DNA of 64,000 nucleotides from a virus. The position numbers and the translations under genes are program-made. Of this stretch, positions 35,039 to 50,032 are shown in pieces. Numbering within the stretch: the first letter of the stretch is position 1; each line of letters opens with the position of its first letter. The stretch spans positions 1 to 64,000 of the IMG/VR virus record IMGVR_UViG_3300034684_000299; one strand, given 5' to 3'. The notes below the pieces were generated by a model, which did not search any database, was not told the DNA's origin, and saw only the letters and a program-made list of their open reading frames with translations.

Positions 35039-35047
35039 TATTAGGGG

Positions 35048-35092
35048 AAAGGAGGGCAAAGCGCATATTTAATAATGCGCTAATTTAAAAAA
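35048..35092 (+). promoter_or_regulatory. SD-hairpin-AUG initiation site (gene 35093)
   Basis: AAAGGAGG 35048-35055, stem AGCGCAT/ATGCGCT 35060-35081, ATG 35093. Confidence 0.55.
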
Positions 35093-36901
35093 ATGAACAA
35101 ACTAACAGTACAATTACCGTTATTAAAGGACCAATGGGCAGCAACATTACTACAAGCTTTATACAATCAGCATCCATATTTGATTGTAGATTCTGCAAAA
35201 GTTAATATCAATGATTACGCCTTAGACGATGGCGTTATAGGTATAATCTATGTTACTATGCAAAATCATAGATTTGGTATACCTTGTATCATACGTAATG
35301 GTGAGGCGTATCCATTCGATATACTTCTTTTGCCAAATGGTAATGTTGAATTGTTGAATAAAAACAACTACGAAAAACTTATCGCTGAGATATATCAAAT
35401 AGCAACTCCAGCACCTAAACTGGATACTATTGCTGATCTATTCACACCTAAGACTTCTGGACATTTACCAATAGACCAAGTGATGACTTTAGACGAATTG
35501 ACTAAACAATCTTCATATAGAACATTAGTATTCAGTGAATATGACCCAGAAGAGTTTATAAAAACAGCAAAAGAGGTATTCAACGTTTTACCAGATGCCA
35601 TTAAAAAGTTTGCAAAAGATTTGAATTTAAGATACTCTAAAAAGGATGAAGATTATACAGACGATATTACTGAGTTTGAAATTTTGGAAAAAACTGCTGG
35701 ATACCAGTTCATATTCTATAACTTGAACAAGAAAGTCAAAGAATACGTGAAAGGTAAAGGTGGATTAGAAAAGATAGCTGAAAACTTTGATATAAATGAT
35801 GAAGAGTTAGAACTTCTACAAAGAACTAAGTATGCTAAATTCAAAAAGAACGCTACTGATTTCTATATCGACCATGAAATAACTGAAAAACCCAAAATAA
35901 CGATTATAAAGATGGCAGGAGATAAAGAAGTCAGAGACAATGTTGATTTTCTCATAAAACCATCTGAACCTAAAGTTGGTACTAGAATGGTATTTTTTGA
36001 GAAAGGTGCCAACGACGAATTATATTTCACTGAACCTATTTATATCACTAAAGTCGAAAAAGATAAATTAGAAGGATATTCTTCAGAAGGATTTGTGAAG
36101 TTAAAAGAAACAGACAAAAACTTTATAAAAAATGCTGCTGTTCCTGAAAGCAAAACATATCTTTTATCAACTAATGCTTTACCTTTTGAGGCAGTTGACA
36201 AAAAACAATACGATGTTAGCAACAAATATCAGCAATTGTTAAAGACCGCATCCTACAATAAATTAAAAATACATAAAGCACCTTCTGCTTATATAGTAGA
36301 TGATAGTAAAATCCTTAAAAATTTAAACGATGTTGATGTTTATCTTATGAAAGAAGCAGGATTTGATGCCAGAGACACTTTGTATATAAATCAACATTTA
36401 GAATCACTTCCACCTTCTAATAGCATTGTTATAAATTACAAACACAATGACCATGAAAAAATTGCAGAGCATAATGACAACACAATTGAAATGTCTAAGG
36501 AAGATAAAAAAGCTTTAATAAAATTTGCAACTTACTATTTGCAAGCGACTGAACAAGGATTATTAAAAATTGCTCAAACTCCAAAAGAAACAAAATCTCA
36601 AGAACAAGTAATGACTAGCCGTGAATTACTCGATTATGCATTAAGACAAGATCCAGACGAAGCGATAGCATACAATTTATTAGAATTAACAGCCAGCAAA
36701 AAATTGAATATATCAGAGCTTATAATGCAATATCAATTATTAGAGAATTCCAAAAATGTATTGATCAAATTACTACTTCAAGCAGAAGTTGGACTCTTAC
36801 CAATAAAGTTTGATATTGTACGCAATGCTTTAATAGCTTTAGAAAATTTATTATTAAGCATTGAATATCTTGTTAATCAGAATCAAACCACGGAAAAATA
36901 A
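35093..36901 (+). CDS. Putative internal virion protein rich in K-x-A motifs (602 aa)
   Basis: 15 K-x-A tripeptides counted; located in spike-RNAP operon. Confidence 0.6.
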   Translation: MNKLTVQLPLLKDQWAATLLQALYNQHPYLIVDSAKVNINDYALDDGVIGIIYVTMQNHRFGIPCIIRNGEAYPFDILLLPNGNVELLNKNNYEKLIAEIYQIATPAPKLDTIADLFTPKTSGHLPIDQVMTLDELTKQSSYRTLVFSEYDPEEFIKTAKEVFNVLPDAIKKFAKDLNLRYSKKDEDYTDDITEFEILEKTAGYQFIFYNLNKKVKEYVKGKGGLEKIAENFDINDEELELLQRTKYAKFKKNATDFYIDHEITEKPKITIIKMAGDKEVRDNVDFLIKPSEPKVGTRMVFFEKGANDELYFTEPIYITKVEKDKLEGYSSEGFVKLKETDKNFIKNAAVPESKTYLLSTNALPFEAVDKKQYDVSNKYQQLLKTASYNKLKIHKAPSAYIVDDSKILKNLNDVDVYLMKEAGFDARDTLYINQHLESLPPSNSIVINYKHNDHEKIAEHNDNTIEMSKEDKKALIKFATYYLQATEQGLLKIAQTPKETKSQEQVMTSRELLDYALRQDPDEAIAYNLLELTASKKLNISELIMQYQLLENSKNVLIKLLLQAEVGLLPIKFDIVRNALIALENLLLSIEYLVNQNQTTEK

Positions 36902-36907
36902 GGGGCG

Positions 36908-37687
36908 ATGCTAATGTTACCATACAACAGATTTTTGATAGCTTTAAAAAGTCTGGGATATAACTACAGGGAAATTCAATCAATATTGAATTCATATAAA
37001 TTACCCAACATGACAGAAGAGCATTATATAGGTATAAATGCCAACGATATTGATGATTGGGTATTAAAATTAATTGATGGATGGAAAGATAAAGATAAAT
37101 ATAAGACGGTATTCTATAAGATGTTAAACAATGCGATGATGAGATATAAACTTATGGCATTGTTAACCGCTAATCCTAATACAGAAGAATTAGCTAAAAC
37201 GATGAAACAAAATGGATTAGAAGAAATAGATGAAGAATCATTGGAATTATTCAAAAAATGGTTTTGGGACATTGATGAGACTAAAGAAAAAGATTGGGAT
37301 TATTTTTTTGAACACAACAGGTTCCCTGGGCAAGTATTGGAAAAGATACAAAATGCATTATACGGAGACAAGATGTTGACATATTATGAAAATGGAATAT
37401 TCCCGGAACCTGACCCAAATGCTTTTTTAAATGGAATTGTTGCGGTAGCATACCAAAAATTAAGAGATATGTTAGCAGACCCTGTCAAACGTAACAGGGT
37501 TAATTATAATACGGCTGTAAAACATGCTATGAAAGCTTTAGAAGTTTTAACCGCTAGAGAAAAGACAGGGACGTCAGAGGTTGATCCTGCTGATATAATA
37601 AATATCTTAGAAAAAAAATTGAAATTTAAAAATATGAAAGATTTTAAAAATATTAATGATTTGCAAGAGAAGGATGAGAAAAAATGA
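36908..37687 (+). CDS. Hypothetical helical protein directly upstream of RNAP (259 aa)
   Basis: ORF overlapping RNAP start (ATGA); function unknown. Confidence 0.7.
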   Translation: MLMLPYNRFLIALKSLGYNYREIQSILNSYKLPNMTEEHYIGINANDIDDWVLKLIDGWKDKDKYKTVFYKMLNNAMMRYKLMALLTANPNTEELAKTMKQNGLEEIDEESLELFKKWFWDIDETKEKDWDYFFEHNRFPGQVLEKIQNALYGDKMLTYYENGIFPEPDPNAFLNGIVAVAYQKLRDMLADPVKRNRVNYNTAVKHAMKALEVLTAREKTGTSEVDPADIINILEKKLKFKNMKDFKNINDLQEKDEKK

Positions 37688-40600
37688 TTCTAACCGGATA
37701 TGCTGAAAAAACGAATGAAGAGTTTAAAAGTGCCATAGAAAGAAAAATAAAAGAAATGTTTCCCATACAAGCTGGAGACAGAGAAATTGTACTTGAAAAA
37801 TTAACAGTCACTGAACCAAAAGAAGCCTATGATGCCGCTGCTTTTGAACAGAAAAAGCTTAATCTTTCATCTATTTCTTTTGATGTCAGTATGAATTTAA
37901 AATTGAGGAACACAAAAACCAACGAAACTATAGATTCTAAAGTTATAAAATTAAAGATTCCTGCTGCTACTATTAAGAACGATTTTTTGGTCAAAGGTAA
38001 CGAGTATGTAATACCAACACAATTGCGATTGAAACCGGGAATATACACTAGGCGAAAATCAAATGGCGAATTAGTTGCTGAATTTAAAATGGAAAAGGGT
38101 GAAAACTTTAAAATAGTTCTCGACCCTAATAAAAACGCGTTGAGAATTGATCAACAGGGCAGACAAATTAAATTGATACCTTTCTTAAAAGGAATGGGCA
38201 TAACAGAAGAACAAATGCGTAAAGCATGGGGAAATGAGGAGTTCAATGTTCTGAATCAAGTTGATGGTCAAGGTGATCCCCAAAAAGAAGTTCAAAAAGT
38301 AATGGAAAAGGACTTTTCTAATAGATACAGATGGTTATGGGAAGATATAGACCCTAATCTTCCACCAAATGAAAAAGTCAAAAAATACATGGAGAAAACA
38401 GAGTTAGATAGTAAAATAACGAATATCACACTTGGGCAAGAAATAAGTAAAGCAGATGTCAACGCTATTTTAGCTGCCGCCGCTAAATTAATTCAAATTT
38501 CTAAAGGTGAAGCAAAAGAATCAGGTATGAGTTCTATAGTTTACAAAAAAGCTCATAAACCATACCATCATATCGAAGAAAAATTAGACGATATGAAAAA
38601 TGTTTTGAACAGTACTGTGAAAAAAAGAATGTTGCAATTCGATGATTTACATAAAATAATCTCCCCTAGTTATACACAAAAGATATTTGATAATTTTTTT
38701 CTTACCTCTTCGGCTTCACAGTTAGCAGACCAGCCTAATGTGATTGGACTTTTATCTAACATGGGAAAAGTTACTCTAACAGGAGAGGGAGCTATTGAAG
38801 AAGATAGAGCTGTAACTGAAGCGGATAGAAGTGTAGACCCTTACCATTTTCTTTTTTTAGACCCTGTACATACACCTGAATCTGAAAAAATTGGTTCTAA
38901 CCTCTTTGCTACAATAGGTTCTCTTGGCTCGATTACAAACGATACGAGTCAGGAATTAAAAAGTGTTTTTTATAATTTAAAAACAGGGCAAAATGTAACA
39001 TTAGCTCCTATCGATGTGTATGATAAAGTTGTTGCTTTTCCAAATGAAATCGAAGGTAAAAAACCAACAGGCAAAACGGTAAAAGCACTTCATAAAGGTG
39101 AAATAAAAAATGTCAAAGATACAGAAGTTGATTTAATCCCTTTAAACGCATCTGAAATGTTTGATTTTTCTTCAAATTTAATACCATTCTTATCTTCAAT
39201 AAATGGAAATAGAGCTATGATGGCTTCAAAACATCTAACTCATGCTATTCCTTTAGTAGACCCAGAACCACCTTTAGTTCAAAATATTGTACCAAATACA
39301 TCTAGAACCTTTGAGAATACAGTAGGTTCTGCTGTAAGTATGTTTTCTCCTGTGGATGGTACGGTTGTTTCTGTTTCCGATAAAAATATAAAAATTAAAG
39401 ATAATAAAGGAAAAATTTACAATGTATCTTTATTGGATTATATTGAAACAGGTGAAAGTACCTTTTTGAAACATATTCCTGTTGTCAAAAAGGATGATAA
39501 AGTTAAAAAAGGACAATTAATAGCAGATTCCAACATGTCCAAAGGTGGTACCTTAGCAATCGGTAAAAATTTAAAGGTTGCTTATGCTCCATACAAAGGA
39601 TTTAACTATGAAGATGGCATAGTAATTTCTGATACAGCTGCTAAAAAATTAGCTTCTGAACATTTATATAATTTTAAAATAGAAATTCTTCCTGGCATGG
39701 TATTTGATAAAAACAAATTCCGTTCTTATTTTCCTAATGAATATACAACACAGCAGTTAAACAATCTAGATGATACAGGTATAGTAAAAAAAGGAACAAA
39801 ATTGAAATATGGAGACCCAGTAGCAGTTTTATTGAAAGAGCGTTCTCAATCAATCCACGAAAAATTAATAGGTGATTTGCATAAACAATTGATGTCTCCG
39901 ATGATAAATGCTTCTGTTGAATGGGACAAAAACGCAGAAGGAGAAGTAGTAAGAGTTGTTAAATCTTCTTCATTAATACAGGTTATGGTAAGAACAGTCG
40001 AACCCATTGTTGCTGGAGATAAAATAGTTGGAAGACACGGTAATAAAGGTACCGTGGCACAAATAGTACCTGAAAAAGATATGCCTGTTGATGAAAGTGG
40101 AGAACCTATAGAAGTAATATTGAACCCTGCTGGTATACCATCGAGAATCAATCCTTCACAAGTTTTAGAAACGGTAGCAGGTAAAATAGCTAAAAAAACG
40201 GGTACACAATATAATATAGAAAATTTCAAACCAAATACGAATTATTTGGAACAATTAAAAACTGATTTGAAAAAATATAATTTAAAAGATACAGAGTATT
40301 TAACTGATCCAAATCTTGGTAAATTAGAAAAACCTGTATTGACAGGATATCAATATATGGTAAAACTTCCCCAACAAGTTGAAGTTAAAACTAATATAAG
40401 AGAAGAATGGGGATACGATGCAGATAAAAGGCCTCTAAGAGGTAGTCAAGAAGGTGGAGGATCAAGGGCATTGGACCCTCTTACCGCTTATTCTTTAATA
40501 GCTCACGACGCAAGAGCTAATATGAGAGAAATGGCTACGTATAAAGCGGAGCAAAATGATGAATTCTGGTTGGCAATAGAAAACGGACAAATTCCACCTG

Positions 40601-43600
40601 CTCCTAAACCCACATTTGCTTTCAATAAGTTTGTTGGTTATTTGAAAGGGGCTGGAATTGATGTAACAAAATCTGGCAATAATTTACAATTAGCCCCTAT
40701 GAAAGATAAAGACATCTTGTCTATGTCCAATGGAGAAGTCAAAAAACCAGATACGTTGAAAGCATACAATTTAACACCTGAAAAAGGTGGAATTTTTGAT
40801 GTTGACGTATTAGGCGGATTACAAGGAGATAAATGGGGACACATAAATTTGGTAAGTAGTATACCAAACCCAACTTTTGAAAGGCAAATCAAAAAAATAC
40901 TTGACTTGTCTTCTAGAGAATATGAACAATTGCTTAAAGGGGAAAAAGGCGTAGATAATAATGGAAATATTGTTGATAAAAATCAGGCCACTTATTTTGC
41001 CGGTGATGCTTTTAAAAAATTATTGTCTAAAATTAATCCAGATCAGGAATTAAGAAAAATACAAGAAACATTAAAGCAAAACGATAATTTACGACCAGAA
41101 GAAATAGATTCTTTAATGTACAAAGCTAAAATCTTTAGAGGTATGAAAGAAACTGGGACCAAACCTGAAGATTATGTAATTAGTCATATACCAGTTATAC
41201 CACCTAAATATAGACCGGTGTACCCTTCACAAGACGATAAGTTTCTTGTAGTTTCACCAATTAATCATTTGTATAAAGATACATTATTACTGAATAATCA
41301 AATAAAAGATGCTGAACAAAGTAAAACATTAACTAAAGAAGAAGAATTAAAATTAGTAGGTGATTTATATAATCAAGTAAAAGCTTTAGTCGGAATTGGT
41401 TCACCTCTCCCTGGCACTCAATCTTCAAAAGAAGGTGCCTCTGGAGCTTTAGAATTTTTAGCTGGAACTCAAAGCCCTAAAAGTGGATATTTTCAATCCA
41501 GACTATTCAGTAAAAGGCAAGAATTGTCTTCGACAGCCGTTATACAGAATGGACCTGATTTAAATTTAGATGAAGCAGCTATTCCCGAAGAGGCTCTTTG
41601 GAATTTGTATAGACCTTTTTTGATAAAGAAACTTCAAGAGAATGGATACAACATCAAAGAAGCTAAAGAAATGATAAAAAATAAAGACCCAATGGCAAGA
41701 AAAATGTTAGAAGAAGAGATTGAAAGTAGACCTGTTTTGTTAAACAGAAGTCCTTCATTACATAAATTTTCCGTTATGGCATTTAAACCTAAAATTACAC
41801 AAGATCAAGTAATAAGATTAAATCCTAATGTTGTAGCAGGCTTTAATGCTGACTACGATGGCGACAGTATTTTTTCCTCTGTTTATGCGGCTTTTTTCAA
41901 CGACGACCAAGATACTCAAAATTATAAATTATTAGGAGAAAACGATATGCCATTTGAAGAATTATCCTTAAGAACAACGTTTGGACTAATTAATTTAAAG
42001 GATTTTCCTAGAATTGAAAAAAGCAAAAGGGTAGAAGGCAACAAAGAAATTTATAAAGTTCCTAAAAATGTAAGGATTTTGGCTTCAAAAGATGGAAAAA
42101 CTGGATATTATCCAATTGAAAGTTTCAGTATACATAAAAATCTAGAAATGGTAGAAGTTAAAACCAACACGTCAAGAACCATTCATTGTTCTAAAGACCA
42201 TTCCCTAGTAACGGTGGATGAAAATCTCAACTATATCAATCATGTTCCAGAAAAATATCTAACTATTCCTAGATTGAGGAAACCTGTTGATACTTACACT
42301 GCCGAACATATTGTTCTTGAAGATAAAGGAGAAAGTAATTATAATTTTAATTTTAAAATTCCTTTAGACGAAAAATGGGGTTATGTTAATGGCGTGTATA
42401 TAGGTGATGGTTGGGTAGATCATATCCAAAGTAAATATAGCATGAATTTAGCCAATGTATCTGAAGAATTATTTAAAGAAATCCAAAATATTTTTAATAG
42501 TTATATTAATGATGAAAACAAGATACATTTTTACATCAAAAATAATCCACATGATTTCGATGGATTTAAAAGTTTTTCAAGAAAAATAACATGGCATTCA
42601 AAAACTTTTCACAATTATTTTAGTTCTTTAGGACATAGAGCTCAAAACAAACATTTGCCAGAATATTGGCTTATTGCTCCTGAAAATTTTAAATGGGGTT
42701 TGTTGGCTGGTTTAATAGATACTGACGGGACAATAAGTTATAATCAGACAGAAAACGGCATTCAGAGAATGTGTATAAATTATTACACAACTTCCAGAAC
42801 TTTAGCTTATGAAATAGCTGCATTAGCTGCAAGTTTAAATTTAACAGCTTCAGTATCTCCAACATTCACACCCAAAGGAGAAGAAGCTTGGACAATTATA
42901 TTTAGTCAAGAATCAATTGTAGATATACAAAATAAATTAAATTTACGTGTTGTTGATAAAAAAGAAAAATTGCAAAAGTATATTCCTAACAAAAATTTTG
43001 CACGTAATAAATATACTCCTAAATTAAGCAAATCTAGACTAAATGAATTGAGAAAAGCAATAGGATCTCCTAGATTAAGGAATAGAAAAGGTGAGTTAAT
43101 AACGGAAGATCCTATTGAACAGTCTAAAATAAAACACAAAAAAAGTTTGAATGTAATCTGTACAAGAGTATCCAATAACAATACTGCTTTAACCAAACAA
43201 ACAGCTTTAAAAATTTTTGATTTGAATTTAGATATATTTGAAAAAGATCCTTTCTGGAAAAAATGGAAAGAGATGGTATTAGATGAAAATATTGAATGGG
43301 AATTAATTACAGATATAAAACCTATACCAGAGATAACTGAAGCTTATGATTTAACAGCAGGACCTTTGTATACTATGATTACAGAAAATGGGTTTATTGT
43401 TCAAGATACAATGGCCATCCATGTTCCAGTAACTGAAGAGGCCAGACAAGAAGCTTTACGTATGACACCTTCAAAAAACCTATTCAGACCTGGAAGTAAA
43501 ACTCTTATGAATACATTGAGATTAGAATACAATGGAGGTATTTATAATTTAACAGCCCCTCCTGAAAATGATAACGTACTTCCTATTCAAGTAGGAGATT

Positions 43601-45519
43601 ACAAAACATTATTTGAACAATTAAGAAATAATAAGGTTAAATACAACGATTTAGTAAAATTCAATGGCAAAGTTTCGACTGTAGGCAGGCATTTAGTAAA
43701 TGAATTGTTCCCTGAGAAATACAGAGATTACAATAACCAATGGAATGGAAAGAAAATAAATAGTACATTGGAAGCTATTGCAAAAGAAAATCCTGATAAA
43801 GCTGTAGAAATATTGAATAGATTAAAAGAATTATCTAGATATGCTATGTACAAAATACCAATAACCGTATCTTTGAATGATCTAGAAATTCCAGAAGCAA
43901 AAGCAATAAAAAATGAAATAAAAAAAATTGACTCATCTTCTAACAAATCGAAAGAAGAAATTATCAAAGAATTAAATCAAGTAGATAATCAAGTTTCAAA
44001 AATGATAGATGAACTATCTAAAAAAAAGGCTAATGAAAACGCATTTTTAATGATGAAAGATTCAGGAACAAAAGGCTCAACTTCGCAAATAAAACAATTA
44101 TTAATAGGACCTGTCAGTGTACAAAATAGTTTTGGTGAAACAATACCAATAGCATTAGGTAATAGTTATTCTGAAGGATTAACACCTGCCCAATATTTTG
44201 CAGCCTCATACGGAGCTAGAATGGGTATGTTAGCTAAAAAATTGGGTGTATCTGAACCTGGAGCTTTAAATAAGGAAATATTAAATTCTGTATCAGACCA
44301 AATAGTTTCTCAATACGATGATCCAAACAATCCAGGTATACCCATTAAAATATCAGAAGAAGATGAAAAAGATTTAGTAGGAAGAGTTTTAGCTAAAGAC
44401 GTATTGGATGAAAGAGGCAGAGTATTAATAGCTAAAGGTGAAATTTTAACACCTCATGCCTTATCATTAATAAAGAATCATAAAATAGATTATATAAATA
44501 TAAAATCTCCTCTTACTGATACTACACCAATAGGTTTAAGTGGCACAAGTTTCGGTTTAGATGAAAATAGTAGAATTCCAAGTATAGGAACTAATCTAGG
44601 TGTTAAACAGACACAAGCTATAACAGAACCATTATCTCAAGGAGCTTTAAACTTTTTTCATACAGGTGGAGTTACTTCTACAGATTCAACAATGTCCACA
44701 TATGAAGCTATAAATACAATGACCAAATTAACAGAGACATTTCAAAGCAAATCAGCAGTATTATCGCTAGTAACTGATACAGTTGAAAAGATAAACAAAA
44801 AACCGTTAGGTGGTTATGAAGTAACAATAGGTGGAGTAAAACATGATATCCCTACAGGATTAGAACCAAAAGTCAAAGTGGGAGATAAAGTTAAAAAAGG
44901 TGAACCCATTTCTACTGGAATGGTTCATCCTGAAGAAGCTTACAAAGCAAGAGGATTGCCTTATGCTGAACAAATTATGGCTAAACAGTTCAGAGATGTT
45001 TTAAAACAGGATCTCAATATAGATTCCGCAAGTATAGAAACATTGGTTAAAGGATTGATTTCAACTGCACAGATATTAGACCCAGGAAATCATGCTGATG
45101 AATTCAAAATTGGTGATGTTGCCAACAGTCAATATATAGATTATTTGAATAGAAAAGATACCCTCACAACCAAAAAAGTAAATTCAGATTTAATAGGTTG
45201 GGTTGTTGGGGATAATTATGGTTATATAAATATAGGAACACCAATTGACGAAAATATATTAAAAGAGTTACAAGAGATGGGATTAAAAGAAATACAAGTT
45301 TACAAGCAAAATATAAAGTTTCAACCGATAATCAAAGGAACAACGGTTTTACCACATAAAAAGTTTGATTGGTTACATAGAGCTACATTCAGAAACCTCA
45401 AACAAGTATTTCCAGAAGAAGCTGCTTTTGGTGGTAAAGCTAATATTCATGGACCAAGTCCATTGACAGCATGGACATATGGAGCTGAAATAAGGAAAGA
45501 TGAAAAAGGGCAATATTAA
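37684..45519 (+). CDS. rpoBC: Fused beta-beta' multisubunit-type RNA polymerase with intein (2611 aa; about 2097 aa spliced)
   Basis: beta motifs DPVHTPES, NLIPFL..NRAMM, GFNYEDG, GDKIVGRHGNKG, LNPAGIPSRIN; beta' motifs GEVKKPDT, PVIPPKYRP, LLNRSPSLH, NADYDGD, bridge helix ASYGARMG, trigger loop QAITEP..FHTGG. Confidence 0.95.
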   Translation: MILTGYAEKTNEEFKSAIERKIKEMFPIQAGDREIVLEKLTVTEPKEAYDAAAFEQKKLNLSSISFDVSMNLKLRNTKTNETIDSKVIKLKIPAATIKNDFLVKGNEYVIPTQLRLKPGIYTRRKSNGELVAEFKMEKGENFKIVLDPNKNALRIDQQGRQIKLIPFLKGMGITEEQMRKAWGNEEFNVLNQVDGQGDPQKEVQKVMEKDFSNRYRWLWEDIDPNLPPNEKVKKYMEKTELDSKITNITLGQEISKADVNAILAAAAKLIQISKGEAKESGMSSIVYKKAHKPYHHIEEKLDDMKNVLNSTVKKRMLQFDDLHKIISPSYTQKIFDNFFLTSSASQLADQPNVIGLLSNMGKVTLTGEGAIEEDRAVTEADRSVDPYHFLFLDPVHTPESEKIGSNLFATIGSLGSITNDTSQELKSVFYNLKTGQNVTLAPIDVYDKVVAFPNEIEGKKPTGKTVKALHKGEIKNVKDTEVDLIPLNASEMFDFSSNLIPFLSSINGNRAMMASKHLTHAIPLVDPEPPLVQNIVPNTSRTFENTVGSAVSMFSPVDGTVVSVSDKNIKIKDNKGKIYNVSLLDYIETGESTFLKHIPVVKKDDKVKKGQLIADSNMSKGGTLAIGKNLKVAYAPYKGFNYEDGIVISDTAAKKLASEHLYNFKIEILPGMVFDKNKFRSYFPNEYTTQQLNNLDDTGIVKKGTKLKYGDPVAVLLKERSQSIHEKLIGDLHKQLMSPMINASVEWDKNAEGEVVRVVKSSSLIQVMVRTVEPIVAGDKIVGRHGNKGTVAQIVPEKDMPVDESGEPIEVILNPAGIPSRINPSQVLETVAGKIAKKTGTQYNIENFKPNTNYLEQLKTDLKKYNLKDTEYLTDPNLGKLEKPVLTGYQYMVKLPQQVEVKTNIREEWGYDADKRPLRGSQEGGGSRALDPLTAYSLIAHDARANMREMATYKAEQNDEFWLAIENGQIPPAPKPTFAFNKFVGYLKGAGIDVTKSGNNLQLAPMKDKDILSMSNGEVKKPDTLKAYNLTPEKGGIFDVDVLGGLQGDKWGHINLVSSIPNPTFERQIKKILDLSSREYEQLLKGEKGVDNNGNIVDKNQATYFAGDAFKKLLSKINPDQELRKIQETLKQNDNLRPEEIDSLMYKAKIFRGMKETGTKPEDYVISHIPVIPPKYRPVYPSQDDKFLVVSPINHLYKDTLLLNNQIKDAEQSKTLTKEEELKLVGDLYNQVKALVGIGSPLPGTQSSKEGASGALEFLAGTQSPKSGYFQSRLFSKRQELSSTAVIQNGPDLNLDEAAIPEEALWNLYRPFLIKKLQENGYNIKEAKEMIKNKDPMARKMLEEEIESRPVLLNRSPSLHKFSVMAFKPKITQDQVIRLNPNVVAGFNADYDGDSIFSSVYAAFFNDDQDTQNYKLLGENDMPFEELSLRTTFGLINLKDFPRIEKSKRVEGNKEIYKVPKNVRILASKDGKTGYYPIESFSIHKNLEMVEVKTNTSRTIHCSKDHSLVTVDENLNYINHVPEKYLTIPRLRKPVDTYTAEHIVLEDKGESNYNFNFKIPLDEKWGYVNGVYIGDGWVDHIQSKYSMNLANVSEELFKEIQNIFNSYINDENKIHFYIKNNPHDFDGFKSFSRKITWHSKTFHNYFSSLGHRAQNKHLPEYWLIAPENFKWGLLAGLIDTDGTISYNQTENGIQRMCINYYTTSRTLAYEIAALAASLNLTASVSPTFTPKGEEAWTIIFSQESIVDIQNKLNLRVVDKKEKLQKYIPNKNFARNKYTPKLSKSRLNELRKAIGSPRLRNRKGELITEDPIEQSKIKHKKSLNVICTRVSNNNTALTKQTALKIFDLNLDIFEKDPFWKKWKEMVLDENIEWELITDIKPIPEITEAYDLTAGPLYTMITENGFIVQDTMAIHVPVTEEARQEALRMTPSKNLFRPGSKTLMNTLRLEYNGGIYNLTAPPENDNVLPIQVGDYKTLFEQLRNNKVKYNDLVKFNGKVSTVGRHLVNELFPEKYRDYNNQWNGKKINSTLEAIAKENPDKAVEILNRLKELSRYAMYKIPITVSLNDLEIPEAKAIKNEIKKIDSSSNKSKEEIIKELNQVDNQVSKMIDELSKKKANENAFLMMKDSGTKGSTSQIKQLLIGPVSVQNSFGETIPIALGNSYSEGLTPAQYFAASYGARMGMLAKKLGVSEPGALNKEILNSVSDQIVSQYDDPNNPGIPIKISEEDEKDLVGRVLAKDVLDERGRVLIAKGEILTPHALSLIKNHKIDYINIKSPLTDTTPIGLSGTSFGLDENSRIPSIGTNLGVKQTQAITEPLSQGALNFFHTGGVTSTDSTMSTYEAINTMTKLTETFQSKSAVLSLVTDTVEKINKKPLGGYEVTIGGVKHDIPTGLEPKVKVGDKVKKGEPISTGMVHPEEAYKARGLPYAEQIMAKQFRDVLKQDLNIDSASIETLVKGLISTAQILDPGNHADEFKIGDVANSQYIDYLNRKDTLTTKKVNSDLIGWVVGDNYGYINIGTPIDENILKELQEMGLKEIQVYKQNIKFQPIIKGTTVLPHKKFDWLHRATFRNLKQVFPEEAAFGGKANIHGPSPLTAWTYGAEIRKDEKGQY
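41866..43407 (+). mobile_element. Intein with LAGLIDADG homing endonuclease (514 aa, Ser1...Gln-Asp / +1 Thr)
   Basis: Removal joins NADYDGD to TMAIHVP (cf. NADFDGDQMAVHVP); block B CSKDH, GVYIGDG, LAGLIDTDG, block F AYDLTA..NGFIVQD. Confidence 0.9.
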
Positions 45520-46195
45520 AGTTTCAAGAAAGGAGGAAAAGTGTTTCGACACTTATAATAATATGATAAAAAAAGAATTTGTAAAAACAGCAAAATCACA
45601 TGGTGCTTTAATGGGAGGAGCCGCTGATATAATGGCTGGTATGCCTCTTCAAATTGGTTCAATAAAATCCCAACAAAAGACTCAGCAAAAACTTACAGAT
45701 TTAAATACAATTTACCAAATAACAACGGGTAGTGATTTGGTAGAGGATTTAAGTAAGTATCAGAAACCACGAGGTGGAGGAATATTGCGTTCCATTGGTT
45801 TAATAGGTGGAACATTAGCAGGTGCTGCTCTTGGAGGTAAAGTTGGAGGTACAATAGCTACAAAATTTATGAAAGATGTTCCAGCTAAAAAAATAACTAG
45901 TAAGTTAATAGGTGCTGAAACTACTAAACAGTTTGGTGAAATAGCAGGTAGTTCTATAGGATCTAATGTAGCTAGTTTTACAGATACAGCCATCGATAAA
46001 AGAAGTATCAATAGAGCAAAACGAAATTTAGAAAGAGATACAAATATAGACCCTGTAAAAAAGGATTTACTAAATAAAGCGTTGGACTTGCAAAGAGAAT
46101 CAGCAAAAAAATACGATGTCGTAGATACTATAGATTTATTCTCCTCACCTATTATTCAAAATACTACTTTCAAACTAAGAAGTCGTTTTAAATAA
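45500..46195 (+). CDS. Glycine-zipper membrane-like protein (probable start ATG 45563)
   Basis: IGLIGGTLAGAALGGKVGG and GEIAGSSIGS; FVKTAK motif near N-terminus. Confidence 0.65.
   Translation: MKKGNIKVSRKEEKCFDTYNNMIKKEFVKTAKSHGALMGGAADIMAGMPLQIGSIKSQQKTQQKLTDLNTIYQITTGSDLVEDLSKYQKPRGGGILRSIGLIGGTLAGAALGGKVGGTIATKFMKDVPAKKITSKLIGAETTKQFGEIAGSSIGSNVASFTDTAIDKRSINRAKRNLERDTNIDPVKKDLLNKALDLQRESAKKYDVVDTIDLFSSPIIQNTTFKLRSRFK
45529..45562 (+). promoter_or_regulatory. SD-hairpin-AUG initiation site (gene 45563)
   Basis: AAAGGAGG, stem AAGTGT-TTCG-ACACTT 45539-45554, ATG 45563. Confidence 0.6.
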
Positions 46196-46286: not shown

Positions 46287-47966
46287 TTGAATATACAATC
46301 TGCAAAAGAGTTTATCAAAGAAAATTTACTGATAGAAGATGTTATAAGTGAATACATACATTTAGAAAAAAGCGGGAAGAATTACAAAGCGTTATGTCCT
46401 TTCCATACTGAAGACACTCCAAGCTTTTTTGTGTTCCCCAATACTCAAACTTTCAAATGTTTTGGGTGTGGAGCACAAGGAGACGTTATTACTTTTGTAG
46501 AGAAATATGAAAATATATCTTTTGTTGATGCTATAAAAAAGTTATCTAAAAAAGCTAATATAACTTTGGAAGAAGAATCTGAAGAATTACATAAACGTGT
46601 ATTGAACATATTAAATTCAAAATATTATGAAACATTGGCATTATTACCTCAAGACCATCCTGCAAAGAAATATGTTTTAAATCGATTTAATGAACAAGAA
46701 ATACAAACATTCAGTTTAGGATATTCAAGTGGAGCAGAATATGAAGATATATTTAAAGTTTTTTCTGAACCTCTTCTTGAATTAAACTATAAAAATCATG
46801 ATATGTTTAAAAACCGAATAATTTTTCCTATAAAAGATATTAATGGTGATGTTATAGGATTCACTGCAAGAGCAATTGATGAACAAACTACTCCAAAATA
46901 CATCAATTCACCAGATTCTTTCTTATTTGATAAAAAACATGTTTTATACAATATAAACATTGCTAAGAAATTTGCTACTACAAACGATCTAGTTATTATC
47001 ACAGAAGGTGTAGCTGATACTATAAAAATGCTATCCATAGGGTTCCCTAATACTGTTGGATTGTTAGGATTGGACGTGTCTTTTGAAAAAGTAAAACTAA
47101 TATCGTCTTTATCTAAAAATCAAATTTTGATGTTAGACAACGATAACTCTGGTAGGAAAGGAACCATGGAGTATATAAAAAATTCTATACCGTTGAAAGC
47201 TCAAATAGTAGTTCCTATATACAAAGAAAAAGACCCAGATATGTTATTAAAACAACATAGTAAAGAGGAAGTCATAAAGATTATAAAAAAGAGTGTTCCA
47301 GGGATCAATTATCTCGTATATCTTATAAAAGCTAAATATGATTTGAATAATGTATTTCAAAAACAGAAATTTTTACAAGAACTTTATTCTTTGTACAATG
47401 CTCTTGTTATTCATGAACAACCATTATTTGCTGACAAAGTAATAAAATTAGTAGAAAAACTGGGGATAACAAAAGAAGCTTTTTTGAATATAAAAGATAC
47501 TGATTATATTCAAGAAGAACCTGATACTAAAGTAGATTTTAATACTTCAAATAATCTTTCAAATTTAAATAAAGTATTGCTAGTTTTAATAATTAATGCT
47601 TCTGATGAAATTAAAGAATTTTTATTAAATTTGAATCCTGATGATTTTATTGAACCTATCACATGTGATATCATAAAAAATTACCAGCGTAAACTGAAAC
47701 TCAACGAAGTAATTGATAAATATCCTTTTATTTATGACTATATTTTATCTCATTATGATTCTATTTCTGATTTACCCAAAGAAAAGGTCAATGATTACTT
47801 TTTAAAATTTAAAGATTATGTCGAAAACAAATTAAAAATAATGAGAGAATTAACTATTTTAAATGAACGCCTACGAAATACTGTTCTTCCAGAAGAAAAA
47901 GCTGAATTAGTCGAAAAAATAATTGAGATACAGCAAAAGATTAAAACTGTTTCAAATAATTCCTGA
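46287..47966 (+). CDS. dnaG: DNA primase
   Basis: CPFHTEDTPSF..CFGC Zn ribbon; YINSP; TOPRIM EG..D, LDND..G, KDPD. Confidence 0.93.
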   Translation: MNIQSAKEFIKENLLIEDVISEYIHLEKSGKNYKALCPFHTEDTPSFFVFPNTQTFKCFGCGAQGDVITFVEKYENISFVDAIKKLSKKANITLEEESEELHKRVLNILNSKYYETLALLPQDHPAKKYVLNRFNEQEIQTFSLGYSSGAEYEDIFKVFSEPLLELNYKNHDMFKNRIIFPIKDINGDVIGFTARAIDEQTTPKYINSPDSFLFDKKHVLYNINIAKKFATTNDLVIITEGVADTIKMLSIGFPNTVGLLGLDVSFEKVKLISSLSKNQILMLDNDNSGRKGTMEYIKNSIPLKAQIVVPIYKEKDPDMLLKQHSKEEVIKIIKKSVPGINYLVYLIKAKYDLNNVFQKQKFLQELYSLYNALVIHEQPLFADKVIKLVEKLGITKEAFLNIKDTDYIQEEPDTKVDFNTSNNLSNLNKVLLVLIINASDEIKEFLLNLNPDDFIEPITCDIIKNYQRKLKLNEVIDKYPFIYDYILSHYDSISDLPKEKVNDYFLKFKDYVENKLKIMRELTILNERLRNTVLPEEKAELVEKIIEIQQKIKTVSNNS

Positions 47967-47980
47967 AAGGAGGGCTTTTT

Positions 47981-50032
47981 TTGAATACCAACGAAGAAAT
48001 ACAATTATCAGTGAATAGAGATAAAAGCATACTATTTATTTATTTGCCCCAAAGTTTTATTGAAGAAAATGGCAAACCACCAGACCTTGAATTTTGGCCT
48101 GAAAAAAATGTCTGGTACCAATACCTTTTCCAAAAAGAATCTTGGAAAAATATAATAAAATATTTAAAAGGGAAGGTTGACAATCAATATATTCAAAAAA
48201 TAAGAGATTCTTTAAAAGAAGGGCGAAATTATGCATTTTATATTAAATACGACAAAGCATGGGTAAAAACCAATGACAATGATTTACTTGGTGAATTAGT
48301 AGAATGTGGTTTTAAATATTCTTATAAAACCGATTTTTATTTTGCCACTTTTCAAACTGTATTGGATAACGAATCCAAATTAAGAGATTTAATTCCAGAT
48401 GTTCTTTTTCAAGTGAAAGAGGAAGTTAAAGATAAACCAGAATTATACATCCAAAAATCAACTAAAAGCAAACAGATAGATTTAGAAAAAATTGCAAAAC
48501 TGCTTCCTCCTTATTTATATGATTTCCAAAAGGAATTTGTAATAAAAGCTTTATCAGATTATTTTAAAGGTAATCCAGGTATTATGTTAGCTGATGACGT
48601 TGGACTTGGTAAAACTGTTCAAAGTTTAGCTTTAGCTGATGTGTTATTCAAATTAGGTAAAATAGATAAAGTATTAATAATTACAAAGAAAAATGTTGTC
48701 AGACAATTTGCCAGTGAAGTCGAAAAATTTCTTAATATTGAACCAGCTATTCTCTCAACACAAGAATGGAAACCCGATACAAGCAAAGTTTTAATTACTA
48801 ATTATGAGCCTATTGTAAAATTTGTTGAAAATTGGAATCTAATGCCTCAAGACAAAAGACATAGGATATTGTTTATTATTGATGAAATAAGTAGTTTAAA
48901 AAGCAGTCAAAACAATAGAGTAAAAGCTTTCAAAAAAATGTTTAAAATGTATCCAGGATTTCGTGTAGGGCTTACCGCAACTCCATTTGGGAAAGAACTT
49001 GTTGAAATGTACAATATGTTTAAAATATTGGTTCCTGATTTCATGGATTGGTATACTTTTGATTATAACCATAGAGATACTTACAGGATAAATAAAACCA
49101 TTACTACAAAGTATGGGTATAAATATACTAAAGAAATAGAAGTAGTCAGTAATTATAAAAATTTTGAACAATTTCATGAAGCCATTGCACCTTATATGGT
49201 GAGAAGAAAGAAAAGTATGGTAGAAAAAGAGTTCGGACCTAAAATAGAACATCCTGTTTTTTTACCAGCTTCAGATAATTTCTTGTATTTATATAGAAAA
49301 TTCATGGAAGATATTATAGATGCTGTTGAAAAAAAGTATAAAGAAAAAGACCAAGGACAAGCTAAATTCTTAGGAGTTTCTCTTTTAAGGCAATTTTGTA
49401 ATTACATAGGTTTATTTGAAAAATCTGAATCACAACTTTTAAAGTATATTCCATACAAACAATATTTAATATTAACTCCTACGCTTAAACTAGATTGGGT
49501 AATAAACAAAGTAAAAGAAATAAACGATAAAGTTCTTATTTTTACGGAATTTGCTAGAATGGCTGAAATTTTAGATAAAACATTCATAGATTTAGGATAT
49601 AAAACTAGAAAGATAACAGGAGCTACCAACAAAGACGATAGAGAATTGTTGAAGCAACAATTTGAAAAAGATAAGTTTCAAATACTCATTGGCACAAATG
49701 CCATGGCGTATGGAGGAAACTTTCAGTTTGTAGATTATTTAATAAATTATGATTTGTCGTATAATCCAGAAGTCAATTGGCAACGTGAAGGTAGAATTCA
49801 TAGATTGGGCAATACAAATACCAAACATATATACAATTTGTTCTTATCTAGTAACGATCCAGACTTTCTTTTGATAGAAGAATTGATATACGAAACTCTC
49901 CAAAGAAGGATGAAAGAAGCTGAATTAGCTACATCAGCTGAAGAATTAAAATTAGAACATGATGACACAGCTATCATAAACGATATAACGAAAACAATCT
50001 TCAAACAAGCAAAAAAGAACAAGCTTTTTTAA
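47981..50032 (+). CDS. SNF2-family helicase/translocase
   Basis: LADDVGLGKT, IIDEIS, GLTATP, MVRRKK, KVLIFTEF, YNP..QREGRIHRLG. Confidence 0.9.
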   Translation: MNTNEEIQLSVNRDKSILFIYLPQSFIEENGKPPDLEFWPEKNVWYQYLFQKESWKNIIKYLKGKVDNQYIQKIRDSLKEGRNYAFYIKYDKAWVKTNDNDLLGELVECGFKYSYKTDFYFATFQTVLDNESKLRDLIPDVLFQVKEEVKDKPELYIQKSTKSKQIDLEKIAKLLPPYLYDFQKEFVIKALSDYFKGNPGIMLADDVGLGKTVQSLALADVLFKLGKIDKVLIITKKNVVRQFASEVEKFLNIEPAILSTQEWKPDTSKVLITNYEPIVKFVENWNLMPQDKRHRILFIIDEISSLKSSQNNRVKAFKKMFKMYPGFRVGLTATPFGKELVEMYNMFKILVPDFMDWYTFDYNHRDTYRINKTITTKYGYKYTKEIEVVSNYKNFEQFHEAIAPYMVRRKKSMVEKEFGPKIEHPVFLPASDNFLYLYRKFMEDIIDAVEKKYKEKDQGQAKFLGVSLLRQFCNYIGLFEKSESQLLKYIPYKQYLILTPTLKLDWVINKVKEINDKVLIFTEFARMAEILDKTFIDLGYKTRKITGATNKDDRELLKQQFEKDKFQILIGTNAMAYGGNFQFVDYLINYDLSYNPEVNWQREGRIHRLGNTNTKHIYNLFLSSNDPDFLLIEELIYETLQRRMKEAELATSAEELKLEHDDTAIINDITKTIFKQAKKNKLF

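What the first reader, a model, noticed from the sequence alone, without database searches (positions are those of the whole stretch)
41866..43407. Intein ending in Gln-Asp inserted directly after the catalytic NADYDGD
Seen: excising Ser1395-Asp1908 rebuilds NADYDGD|TMAIHVP. The intein has LAGLIDADG motifs, begins with Ser, and ends ..NGFIVQD rather than the usual His-Asn. Known: C-terminal Asp inteins are rare (e.g. Carboxydothermus RIR1) and need non-standard chemistry for the release step. Inference: RNAP activity depends on an atypical splicing reaction at the active site, which could act as a conditional (temperature/pH) switch as well as a homing parasite aimed at related phages.
Basis: partly seen in the sequence, partly recalled or inferred. 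Interest (0 to 1): 0.75.

Follow-up and report, generated by a model that had tools for sequence, protein, structure and literature searches.

The report
Asp-ending intein in phage RNA polymerase
A mobile self-splicing protein insert (intein) sits right after the magnesium-binding NADYDGD loop of a 185-kb phage's only RNA polymerase; its odd ending (Gln-Asp instead of His-Asn) is real and is the conserved rule of a large phage intein family I found described nowhere, so the enzyme probably matures by a rarely studied variant of protein-splicing chemistry.

Summary
Window 41866-43407 encodes a 514-aa LAGLIDADG intein (Ser1 ... Gln513-Asp514, then Thr+1). It lies directly after NADYDGD in a 2611-aa fused beta-beta' RNA polymerase of an IMG/VR phage record.

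A 2097-aa intein-less allele, 96% identical, reads NADYDGD|TMAIHVP. That fixes both boundaries.

The terminal Asp is not an error. Two independent contigs carry the same GAT, and Asp is invariant in 79 of 79 aligned full-length relatives at this site. In those relatives the two histidines that normally help the last step are also replaced: F:13 is Tyr/Trp and G:6 is Trp/Gln/Tyr/Phe. Ser/Cys/Thr at position 1, block-B His, F:4 Asp and a +1 Thr/Ser/Cys are kept.

The intein is under purifying selection (dN/dS about 0.13, like the exteins). It folds as an endonuclease-bearing intein (pLDDT 87; Foldseek TliVMA 5e-23).

My reading is a working class-1, cysteine-independent intein that releases itself by Asp cyclisation and spreads by homing. 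No evidence supports a conditional switch.

C-terminal Asp inteins are known but little studied. I found no description of this family or this insertion site. This scan has already met the same family on other phage DNA.

The parts
37684..45519 (+). Host gene: 2611-aa fused beta-beta' multisubunit-type RNA polymerase (2097 aa after excision)
   Evidence: ORF list. Pfam Rpb2_6 1.6e-56, Rpb1_2 7e-21, Rpb1_1, Rpb1_4 and Rpb1_5. It is the only PF00623 match in the 185-kb record.
41845..41865 (+). N-extein end: catalytic Mg-binding motif NADYDGD; Asp1394 is the -1 residue
   Evidence: The DGD just before the insert is kept in 77 of 79 Asp-group and 45 of 45 Ser-Asn-group relatives.
41866..43407 (+). 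Intein, 514 aa (Ser1395-Asp1908 of the precursor)
   Evidence: AlphaFold2 pLDDT 86.8, pTM 0.87. Foldseek TliVMA 7qss 5.3e-23, PI-PfuI 1dq3 1.1e-18, 2cw7 1.2e-18. The intein-less allele P0009 fixes the boundaries.
41866..41895 (+). Block A / first strand, SIFSSVYAAF, with the Ser1 nucleophile (AGT)
   Evidence: Position 1 is Ser57/Cys16/Thr6 in 79 relatives. The Ser codon is AGT here and TCA in L004 and L005. Model strand at model residues 10-15.
41902..41976 (+). Variable, probably disordered loop (intein residues 13-37) between the first and second strands
   Evidence: pLDDT below 50 for model residues 18-42. The solved V-ATPase inteins align only from intein residue 33 onward. These columns are gapped or variable in the family.
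42133..42135 (+). His90, invariant; candidate 'NX-motif' histidine of Ser1 (oxyester) inteins
   Evidence: His in 79 of 79 and 45 of 45 relatives. The NX motif is described in PMC10189870. Here it is preceded by Ile, not Arg/Lys, and its closeness to Ser1 was not measured.
42190..42204 (+). Block B, S109-K-D-H112-S (equivalent of TxxH)
   Evidence: Ser109 in 76 of 79, His112 in 68 of 79, Ser113 in 78 of 79.
42379..42417 (+). First LAGLIDADG motif, GYVNGVYIGDGWV (acidic Asp181)
   Evidence: Asp181 in 68 of 79. PF14528 match.
42697..42735 (+). Second LAGLIDADG motif, GLLAGLIDTDGTI (acidic Asp287)
   Evidence: Asp287 in 76 of 79. PF14528 1.7e-14.
43342..43377 (+). Block F, AYDLTAGPLYTM: Asp495 (F:4) is kept; Tyr502 stands where His F:13 normally is
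   Evidence: Asp495 in 79 of 79. Position 502 is Tyr34/Trp22/Phe7 and never the majority His. Canonical His-Asn inteins at the same site have His there.
43387..43407 (+). Block G, NGFIVQD: Gln513 (G:6, normally His) and Asp514 (G:7, normally Asn; codon GAT at 43405-43407)
   Evidence: G:6 is Trp28/Gln24/Tyr19/Phe7 and G:7 is Asp in 79 of 79.
43408..43428 (+). C-extein start TMAIHVP; Thr1909 is the +1 nucleophile (ACA)
   Evidence: The +1 residue is Thr68/Ser10/Cys1 in Asp-group relatives. Intein-less alleles also carry Ala, Gln, Glu or Arg there.

Best explanation
This is a working class-1 intein with a nested LAGLIDADG homing endonuclease. It is translated inside the phage's fused beta-beta' RNA polymerase, directly after the third Mg-binding aspartate.

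Inferred mechanism:
1. Ser1 attacks the Asp1394-Ser1395 bond to form an oxyester. Helpers are block-B Ser109/His112, F:4 Asp495 and probably the invariant His90.
2. Thr+1 takes over the N-extein, giving the branched ester.
3. The side chain of the terminal Asp514 cyclises on its own backbone carbonyl, giving a cyclic anhydride in place of the usual Asn succinimide. This frees the intein. It does so in a pocket where Tyr502 and Gln513 replace the two histidines that normally assist this step.
4. An O-to-N shift leaves NADYDGD-TMAIHVP.

No cysteine is used. The element belongs to a large phage-RNAP-specific family in which this Asp/Tyr(Trp)/Gln(Trp,Tyr,Phe) set is fixed. It persists by homing into empty alleles.

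Shown here: anatomy, boundaries, fold, family-wide conservation, purifying selection and the existence of an empty allele. Inferred: every chemical step and endonuclease activity.
For: - Boundaries and motifs.
- Empty allele: P0009 is exactly 514 aa shorter with junction NADYDGD|TMAIHVP.
- Fold: pLDDT 86.8; Foldseek TliVMA, PI-PfuI and PI-PkoII at 1e-18 to 5e-23.
- Family: 640 representatives of 50%-identity clusters match the intein at E<=1e-3 and 79 at E<=1e-30.
- Conservation in 79 aligned full-length Asp-group members: position 1 Ser/Cys/Thr 79 of 79, His90 79 of 79, Ser109 76, His112 68, Asp495 79, Asp514 79, +1 Thr/Ser/Cys 79. No His majority at F:13 or G:6.
- Canonical His-Asn inteins at the same site do keep His at F:13 and G:6.
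- The +1 nucleophile is universal wherever an intein is present (about 170 junctions). About 12-14 of about 60 empty alleles have Ala, Gln, Glu or Arg there. This argues for ligation, not mere cleavage.
- Selection: dN/dS window versus L004 is 0.13 for the intein (0.12 for the endonuclease part) and 0.15-0.18 for the exteins, with equal dS of about 1.3.
- The Ser1 codon is AGT versus TCA in relatives, and Asp514 is GAT in three contigs.
- Only one beta' catalytic domain in the record.
- Literature: Asp and Gln ends can cyclise, and about 5% of working inteins lack His G:6 (PMC4031507). Ser1/Thr+1 inteins with Asp at -1 splice (PMC13014065; PMC10189870).
Against: - No biochemical data exist for any member.
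- Pfam Intein_splicing scores 27.1 bits, below its 35.8 cut-off, and TIGR01445 scores 16 against 24.5.
- Both histidines usually tied to the release step are absent.
- Asp at -1 favours premature N-terminal cleavage in many inteins (PMC11842431).
- From memory of Amitai et al. 2004 (not readable here), the mechanism of the one studied Asp-ended intein (Chy RIR1) was itself not settled.
- His90 is preceded by Ile, not the Arg/Lys of the published NX motif, and its position relative to Ser1 could not be measured because no model coordinates were available.
Confidence: 0.8

Rival explanations
1. It is a self-cleaving module, not a ligating intein. The element cuts at one or both junctions, helped by Asp at -1 and Asp at the end. 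This leaves beta-beta'N (1-1394) and beta'C (1909-2611) as separate chains that assemble non-covalently, as in phages whose RNAP subunits are naturally split.
For: Asp at -1 promotes N-terminal cleavage in many inteins (PMC11842431). The histidines that couple the release step are missing. Split beta/beta' subunits are normal in other large phages (PMC7824862). An earlier scan note reports a split version of this family, which I did not check.
Against: The +1 Thr/Ser/Cys is kept at every intein-bearing junction but is dispensable in empty alleles, where Ala, Gln, Glu and Arg also occur. The Ser/Cys/Thr at position 1 is also universal in the Asp group. Both are needed for ligation and not for simple cleavage at the C-junction. 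A cut right after the Mg-binding Asp would leave a free carboxylate in the active centre.
Confidence: 0.08
2. It is a decayed, non-splicing intein. The gene would be a pseudogene or the insert would be tolerated, and the Asp end would be a degenerative mutation.
For: Non-canonical residues at three catalytic positions (F:13, G:6, G:7). The Pfam splicing-domain score is below its cut-off.
Against: The 2611-codon frame is open. dN/dS is 0.13, equal to the exteins. Asp is invariant in 79 of 79 divergent relatives along with the other catalytic residues. This is the only RNAP catalytic subunit in the record. The one relative that does look decayed (P0126: truncated ORF, Asn for Asp, Tyr for His90) shows that decay looks different.
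Confidence: 0.04
3. One reading: splicing is a regulated temperature or pH switch that gates phage transcription.
For: A carboxylate nucleophile and oxyester chemistry could in principle be pH-sensitive. The cysteine-less PolB16 intein works best at pH 6 (PMC10189870). Regulatory splicing is documented for some other inteins (titles listed).
Against: Nothing in the sequence points to a sensor. There is no conserved Cys pair (Cys108 is Cys in 32 of 79). The variable loop 13-37 is not conserved. Closely related phages do without the intein (P0009, P0008), so it is dispensable for the life cycle.
Confidence: 0.1
4. The GAT at 43405-43407 is an assembly or sequencing error for AAT (Asn).
For: The two codons differ by one base.
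Against: Three independent contigs carry the same GAT. Asp is present in 79 of 79 aligned relatives and is coupled to loss of His at F:13 and G:6.
Confidence: 0.01

Closest known systems
Carboxydothermus hydrogenoformans RIR1 intein (Amitai, Dassa and Pietrokovski 2004, J Biol Chem 279:3121; cited in PMC4031507)
   Same: A natural intein ending in Asp instead of Asn that still splices. It is the textbook precedent for Asp taking the place of Asn in the release step.
   Different: Its host protein is ribonucleotide reductase, in a bacterium. It is a single example, whereas here Asp is fixed in a large family and coupled to loss of His F:13 and His G:6. Homology to it was not tested because no sequence was at hand, and the paper itself could not be read here.
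Cysteine-independent class-1 inteins (Ser1 with Ser/Thr+1): PolB16 OarG, Aes123 PolB1 and its 'CL' derivative, Psp Pol-1 (PMC10189870, PMC13014065)
   Same: Ser1/Thr+1 oxyester chemistry, phage or metagenome origin, a native Asp at -1 (Aes123 PolB1), and an extra conserved histidine upstream of block B (motif NX; His90 here is invariant).
   Different: Those end in His-Asn and sit in DNA polymerases. Here the end is Gln-Asp, F:13 is Tyr, and His90 follows Ile rather than Arg/Lys.
Endonuclease-bearing archaeal inteins TliVMA (7qss), PhoVMA (7qst), PI-PfuI (1dq3), PI-PkoII (2cw7)
   Same: Best structural matches: Hint fold with a nested two-motif LAGLIDADG endonuclease. Weak sequence match to the N-terminal splicing region.
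   Different: Sequence identity is 12-18%. They have Cys1 and a His-Asn end, and their hosts are V-ATPase, RNR and DNA polymerase. They have no counterpart of the 25-aa loop after the first strand.
Archaeal RNA polymerase subunit A'' inteins (NCBIfam PRK14898)
   Same: Best NCBIfam match for the intein (4.3e-18). Also an intein in the largest RNAP subunit.
   Different: The insertion site differs: A'' is the C-terminal half of the subunit, not the NADFDGD loop. The score is far below the model's cut-off because only the intein part matches.
Class 2 (Mja KlbA) and class 3 (phage DnaB/TerL 'WCT') inteins
   Same: Other natural departures from the standard residue set (PMC4031507).
   Different: Those lack the position-1 nucleophile, and class 3 has Cys at F:4. 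This intein has Ser1 and Asp at F:4, so it is neither.

Membership tests
Class 1 intein (Hint splicing domain) | Hint fold | tested here: met
   AlphaFold2 pLDDT 86.8, pTM 0.87. Foldseek top hits are all inteins, 5e-23 to 1e-18.
Class 1 intein (Hint splicing domain) | Cys/Ser/Thr as first residue | tested here: met
   Ser1395 (AGT) directly after NADYDGD. Ser/Cys/Thr in 79 of 79 relatives.
Class 1 intein (Hint splicing domain) | Block B Thr/Ser-x-x-His | tested here: met
   S109-K-D-H112. Ser in 76 of 79 and His in 68 of 79.
Class 1 intein (Hint splicing domain) | Block F Asp (F:4) | tested here: met
   Asp495 in AYDLT, 79 of 79.
Class 1 intein (Hint splicing domain) | His at F:13 and His at G:6 (penultimate) | tested here: not met
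   Tyr502 and Gln513. The family has Tyr/Trp/Phe and Trp/Gln/Tyr/Phe at these positions. The review notes that these histidines are not required in all inteins (PMC4031507).
Class 1 intein (Hint splicing domain) | C-terminal Asn | tested here: not met
   Asp514 (GAT). Asp, Gln and Glu ends are accepted variants of class 1 in PMC4031507.
Class 1 intein (Hint splicing domain) | Cys/Ser/Thr at +1 | tested here: met
   Thr1909 (ACA). Thr/Ser/Cys at every intein-bearing junction.
Class 1 intein (Hint splicing domain) | Excision restores an uninterrupted, conserved host sequence | tested here: met
   P0009 is 2097 aa (2611 minus 514) with NADYDGD|TMAIHVP. About 60 further empty alleles were found.
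Class 1 intein (Hint splicing domain) | Curated profile over its cut-off (Pfam PF14890, TIGR01445) | tested here: not met
   27.1 bits against a cut-off of 35.8, and 16 bits against 24.5. Both are significant by E-value but below the curated cut-offs.
Class 1 intein (Hint splicing domain) | Protein splicing demonstrated | not testable with these tools
   Needs expression and mass spectrometry.
LAGLIDADG homing endonuclease (two-motif, intein-nested) | Two LAGLIDADG helices, each ending in an acidic residue; profile match | tested here: met
   PF14528 1.7e-14 with two stretches. Asp181 and Asp287 are present and conserved in 68 and 76 of 79. I-DmoI and I-Tsp061I match the fold of the middle domain.
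LAGLIDADG homing endonuclease (two-motif, intein-nested) | Cleaves the empty allele | not testable with these tools
   Support is indirect only: an empty allele at 96% identity, and dN/dS of 0.12 over the endonuclease part.
Cysteine-independent Ser1 inteins with motif NX (Pasch et al. 2023) | Ser1 with Ser/Thr+1, and a conserved [Arg/Lys]-His upstream of block B near Ser1 | tested here: inconclusive
   Ser1/Thr+1 is met. His90 is invariant (124 of 124) but preceded by Ile. Its distance to Ser1 was not measurable because no coordinates were available.
Class 3 intein | No position-1 nucleophile; Trp (block B), Cys (F:4), Thr (G:5) signature | tested here: not met
   Ser1 is present and F:4 is Asp495.
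Class 2 intein (KlbA type) | Ala1, Ser at G:6, Cys+1 | tested here: not met
   Ser1, Gln at G:6, Thr+1.

The most novel reading that the evidence does not exclude
The Asp-ended family, this intein included, may use a truly different catalytic arrangement for the release step. A terminal Asp would form an anhydride in a histidine-free pocket built from Tyr/Trp (F:13), Gln/Trp/Tyr/Phe (G:6) and the invariant His90. Together with its nucleophile-less Ser-Asn sister clade at the same site, it would record how phage RNA-polymerase inteins rewired protein-splicing chemistry more than once. It would also supply natural cysteine-free, histidine-poor inteins whose excised form carries a reactive C-terminal anhydride.
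Probability: 0.3. Interest if true: 0.75.

Novelty: new variant of a known kind. Interest (0 to 1): 0.6.

Why it matters
- Chemistry: in the review I could read (PMC4031507) the Asp-for-Asn ending rests on one cited study, and from memory that study covers a single intein. Here it is the fixed state of a family with hundreds of sequence clusters, coupled to loss of both helper histidines. That makes it a natural system for working out how an aspartate can do the release step.
- Engineering: the intein uses no cysteine, which is the property sought in redox-independent splicing tools.
- Phage biology: it shows that large uncultured phages tolerate a mobile element in the most conserved loop of their only RNA polymerase. 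All transcription by that enzyme would then depend on one self-processing reaction.
- Evolution: closely related phages differ by presence or absence of the element, so its spread can be studied directly.

Tried and rejected
- Shifted boundaries (Asp...Gln intein with Asp at +1) would give the same product. I rejected this because +1 would have no nucleophile, and relatives would then end in Trp, Tyr or Phe.
- The first PDB alignment began only at intein residue 33, which suggested that the first 26 residues were not intein. I rejected this after the family alignment showed a conserved S-x-[IL]-x-S-V-[FY] first strand and the model showed a strand followed by a disordered loop.
- Class 2, class 3 and BIL readings were rejected on Ser1, Asp at F:4 and Thr+1.
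- P0126 (Tyr-Asn end, nested in the Asp clade) looked like a natural 'D-to-N mutant'. I rejected it as evidence because it sits in a truncated ORF and has also lost His90.
A degenerate junction pattern found nothing in viral, metagenome or genome contigs.
- blastn against GenBank phages found nothing. tblastn with the intein found only the endonuclease part of unrelated phage inteins. I therefore found no cultured phage with this intein.
- Seven literature searches found no description of an intein at the beta' NADFDGD site or of an Asp-ended intein family. The library lacks most subscription journals, and Amitai 2004 could not be read.
Full report
**1.

The window is part of a 185,437-bp IMG/VR virus record of about 30% G+C, estimated 91% complete. 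ORF 37684-45519 (+) encodes 2611 aa with Pfam domains of both the beta subunit (Rpb2_6, 1.6e-56) and the beta' subunit (Rpb1 domains 1, 2, 4, 5). It is therefore a fused beta-beta' multisubunit-type RNA polymerase.

Translation gives GFNADYDGD|SIFSSVYAAF...TENGFIVQD|TMAIHVPV. The insert is residues 1395-1908, which is window 41866-43407 and 514 aa. It has two LAGLIDADG motifs (PF14528 1.7e-14), a sub-threshold Intein_splicing match (27.1 against 35.8 bits) and weak matches to intein-containing NCBIfam models.

The record has only this one beta' catalytic domain and only this one LAGLIDADG element.

**2. The boundaries are fixed by a natural empty allele**

A search of the 5.8-billion-protein collection with residues 1150-2150 returned P0009. 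It is 2097 aa, exactly 2611 minus 514, and reads NADYDGD|TMAIHVP at the site. Overall it is 96.0% identical to the window's exteins.

A second close allele, P0008, is 94% identical and partial, and has Gln at +1. About 60 more distant empty alleles carry Thr, Ala, Gln, Ser, Glu or Arg at that position.

**3. The Gln-Asp end is conserved, not an error**

Two independent viral contigs carry the same kind of intein at the same site. L004 is 517 aa with a 71%-identical intein. L005 is a 395-aa version without most of the endonuclease. Both end in Gln-Asp with codon GAT, followed by Thr. The Ser1 codon is AGT in the window and TCA in both relatives.

An exhaustive HMMER search of 1.84 billion cluster representatives with the intein alone found 640 proteins at E<=1e-3 and 79 at E<=1e-30. 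Where flanks were present, all sat after a DGD (rarely DGN) motif of RNAP-like proteins.

I cut out 128 full-length inteins with both junctions mapped and aligned them. They fall into three groups.

- **Asp-ended group (79 members, including this one).**
  - Position 1: Ser57/Cys16/Thr6.
  - His90: 79 of 79.
  - Block B: Ser109 76, Asp111 69, His112 68, Ser113 78.
  - F:4 Asp495: 79 of 79.
  - F:13 equivalent (Asp495 plus 7, as in Mtu RecA Asp422/His429, numbering from memory): Tyr34/Trp22/Phe7.
  - G:6: Trp28/Gln24/Tyr19/Phe7.
  - G:7: Asp 79 of 79.
  - +1: Thr68/Ser10/Cys1.
- **Ser-Asn-ended group (45 members).** It has no position-1 nucleophile and Arg in place of the block-B His. See the passing observations at the end.
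- **A few canonical inteins at the same site.** They have His at F:13 and a His-Asn end.

So Asp at the end goes together with loss of both histidines that normally serve the release step.

In a FastTree tree built without the terminal columns, the window pairs with L004's protein (support 1.0). The Gln/Tyr/Trp choice at G:6 flips among close relatives.

**4. The intein is maintained by selection and looks functional**

Between the window and L004, dN/dS is 0.13 for the intein (0.12 over residues 150-400, the endonuclease part). It is 0.15-0.18 for the flanking exteins, and dS is the same at about 1.3. Intein and host gene have therefore diverged together under similar constraint.

Asp181 and Asp287, the acidic residues of the two LAGLIDADG motifs, are present and conserved.

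AlphaFold2 with a 20-sequence alignment gives pLDDT 86.8 and pTM 0.87. Only intein residues 13-37 are unconfident. They form a loop between the first strand (SIFSSVYAAF) and the second. This explains why solved V-ATPase inteins align only from residue 33.

Foldseek's best matches are endonuclease-bearing inteins: TliVMA 7qss 5.3e-23, PI-PfuI 1dq3, PI-PkoII 2cw7, PhoVMA 7qst and PI-SceI. Free-standing LAGLIDADG enzymes match the middle domain.

**5. How it most likely works**

The residues needed for the first two steps of standard splicing are all present, and they use oxygen nucleophiles:

- Ser1;
- block-B Ser-x-x-His;
- F:4 Asp;
- Thr+1.

The invariant His90 is a candidate for the 'NX' histidine that Pasch et al. 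found to be critical and specific to Ser1 inteins (PMC10189870). Here Ile precedes it rather than Arg/Lys, and I could not measure its distance to Ser1.

For the release step, the review by Mills, Johnson and Perler states that Asp or Gln in place of Asn can cyclise to cut the C-terminal junction. It also states that about 5% of working inteins lack His G:6 (PMC4031507).

I therefore read step 3 as attack of the Asp514 side chain on its own carbonyl, giving an anhydride. Autoproteolysis through an aspartic anhydride has a natural precedent in FrpC (abstract of PMC7846742, listed).

A native Asp at -1 with Ser1 also has a precedent in the Aes123 PolB1 intein (PMC13014065).

The strongest argument that ligation occurs, and not just cleavage, concerns the +1 residue. 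A +1 Thr/Ser/Cys is found at all of the roughly 170 intein-bearing junctions. In contrast, 12-14 of about 60 empty alleles have a non-nucleophile there. These counts are not phylogenetically independent.

All chemical steps remain inference.

**6. Mobility**

The empty allele at 96% identity shows presence/absence polymorphism among near relatives.

Its 83 differences from the window's exteins avoid residues 1077-1961 entirely. That is 318 aa before and 53 aa after the site. The stretch is not unusually conserved in comparisons with P0006 and P0007, where 13-14 differences would be expected. P(0) is about 2e-7 to 7e-7 under a simple proportional model.

This looks like a recent recombination tract across the insertion site. 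The direction (gain or loss) cannot be read from protein alone.

**7. What is not supported**

- Nothing indicates a temperature or pH switch.
- The single Asn-ended sequence inside the Asp clade (P0126) is in a truncated ORF and has also lost His90. It is better read as decay than as proof that Asn works.

**8. Comparison with what is known, and novelty**

C-terminal Asp is a known but rare class-1 variant. The review I read cites one study for it (Amitai et al. 2004), which from memory characterised a single intein, Chy RIR1. Cysteine-independent Ser1 inteins are also known.

I found no paper describing an intein at the beta' NADFDGD site or an Asp-ended family. I found no cultured phage in GenBank with a relative of it. 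The paper library is incomplete.

Earlier notes of this scan had already met the same family on other phage DNA. These include versions with Asn at -1, a split version, and the nucleophile-less sister clade. I used those notes as leads only. The NX-motif paper came from one of them.

I rate this a new variant of a known kind.

Noticed in passing
Related proteins P0031, P0034, P0035, P0043, P0044, P0046, P0047, P0050, P0051, P0054, P0055 and about 35 more (not in the window): A sister clade of inteins sits at exactly the same DGD|T site. It has no position-1 nucleophile (Gln, Leu, Asp, Ala, Glu, Met and others), usually Gln at position 2, and Asp-Asp-Asp-Arg where block B Thr-x-x-His should be (Arg 45 of 45). 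Glu at the F:13 position is invariant, and the end is always Ser-Asn|Thr. This fits none of the three described intein classes. Earlier scan notes saw it too.
   Followed up: partly
window 37684-45519 (exteins): The 2097 extein residues contain no cysteine. The only three Cys (1502, 1697, 1826) lie in the intein, and the empty allele P0009 has none at all. More distant relatives (P0010, P0016) do have extein Cys clusters. A cysteine-free polymerase thus carries a cysteine-independent intein.
   Followed up: partly
P0009 versus window residues 1077-1961: The difference-free stretch spanning the intein site, in an otherwise 4%-diverged pair of alleles, suggests a recent recombination tract.
   Followed up: partly
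P0008 (partial, labelled by NCBI as a Thermoanaerobacterium sp. MAG): A close empty allele has Gln instead of Thr at +1 (NADYDGD|QMAIHVP). It could not support splicing if invaded without co-conversion. The MAG label hints at the host or habitat.
   Followed up: no
P0041, P0066, P0173, P0239 (related proteins): Some Asp-ended relatives have DGN instead of DGD before the intein, that is, Asn at -1 in place of the third catalytic Asp. Earlier scan notes discuss this subgroup. The window itself keeps Asp.
   Followed up: no
P0163, P0203 (related proteins): Two relatives read DGD-K-M-S...W-D|S-A-F/Y-V-P. This suggests the same intein type inserted two residues further downstream, after DGDKM and with Ser at +1.
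   Followed up: no
window 46287-50032: Downstream of the polymerase lie a DnaG-type primase (Zn ribbon plus Toprim) and an SNF2-family helicase. The four ORFs flanking the RNAP (33878-37687 and 45500-46195) have no Pfam match.
   Followed up: no
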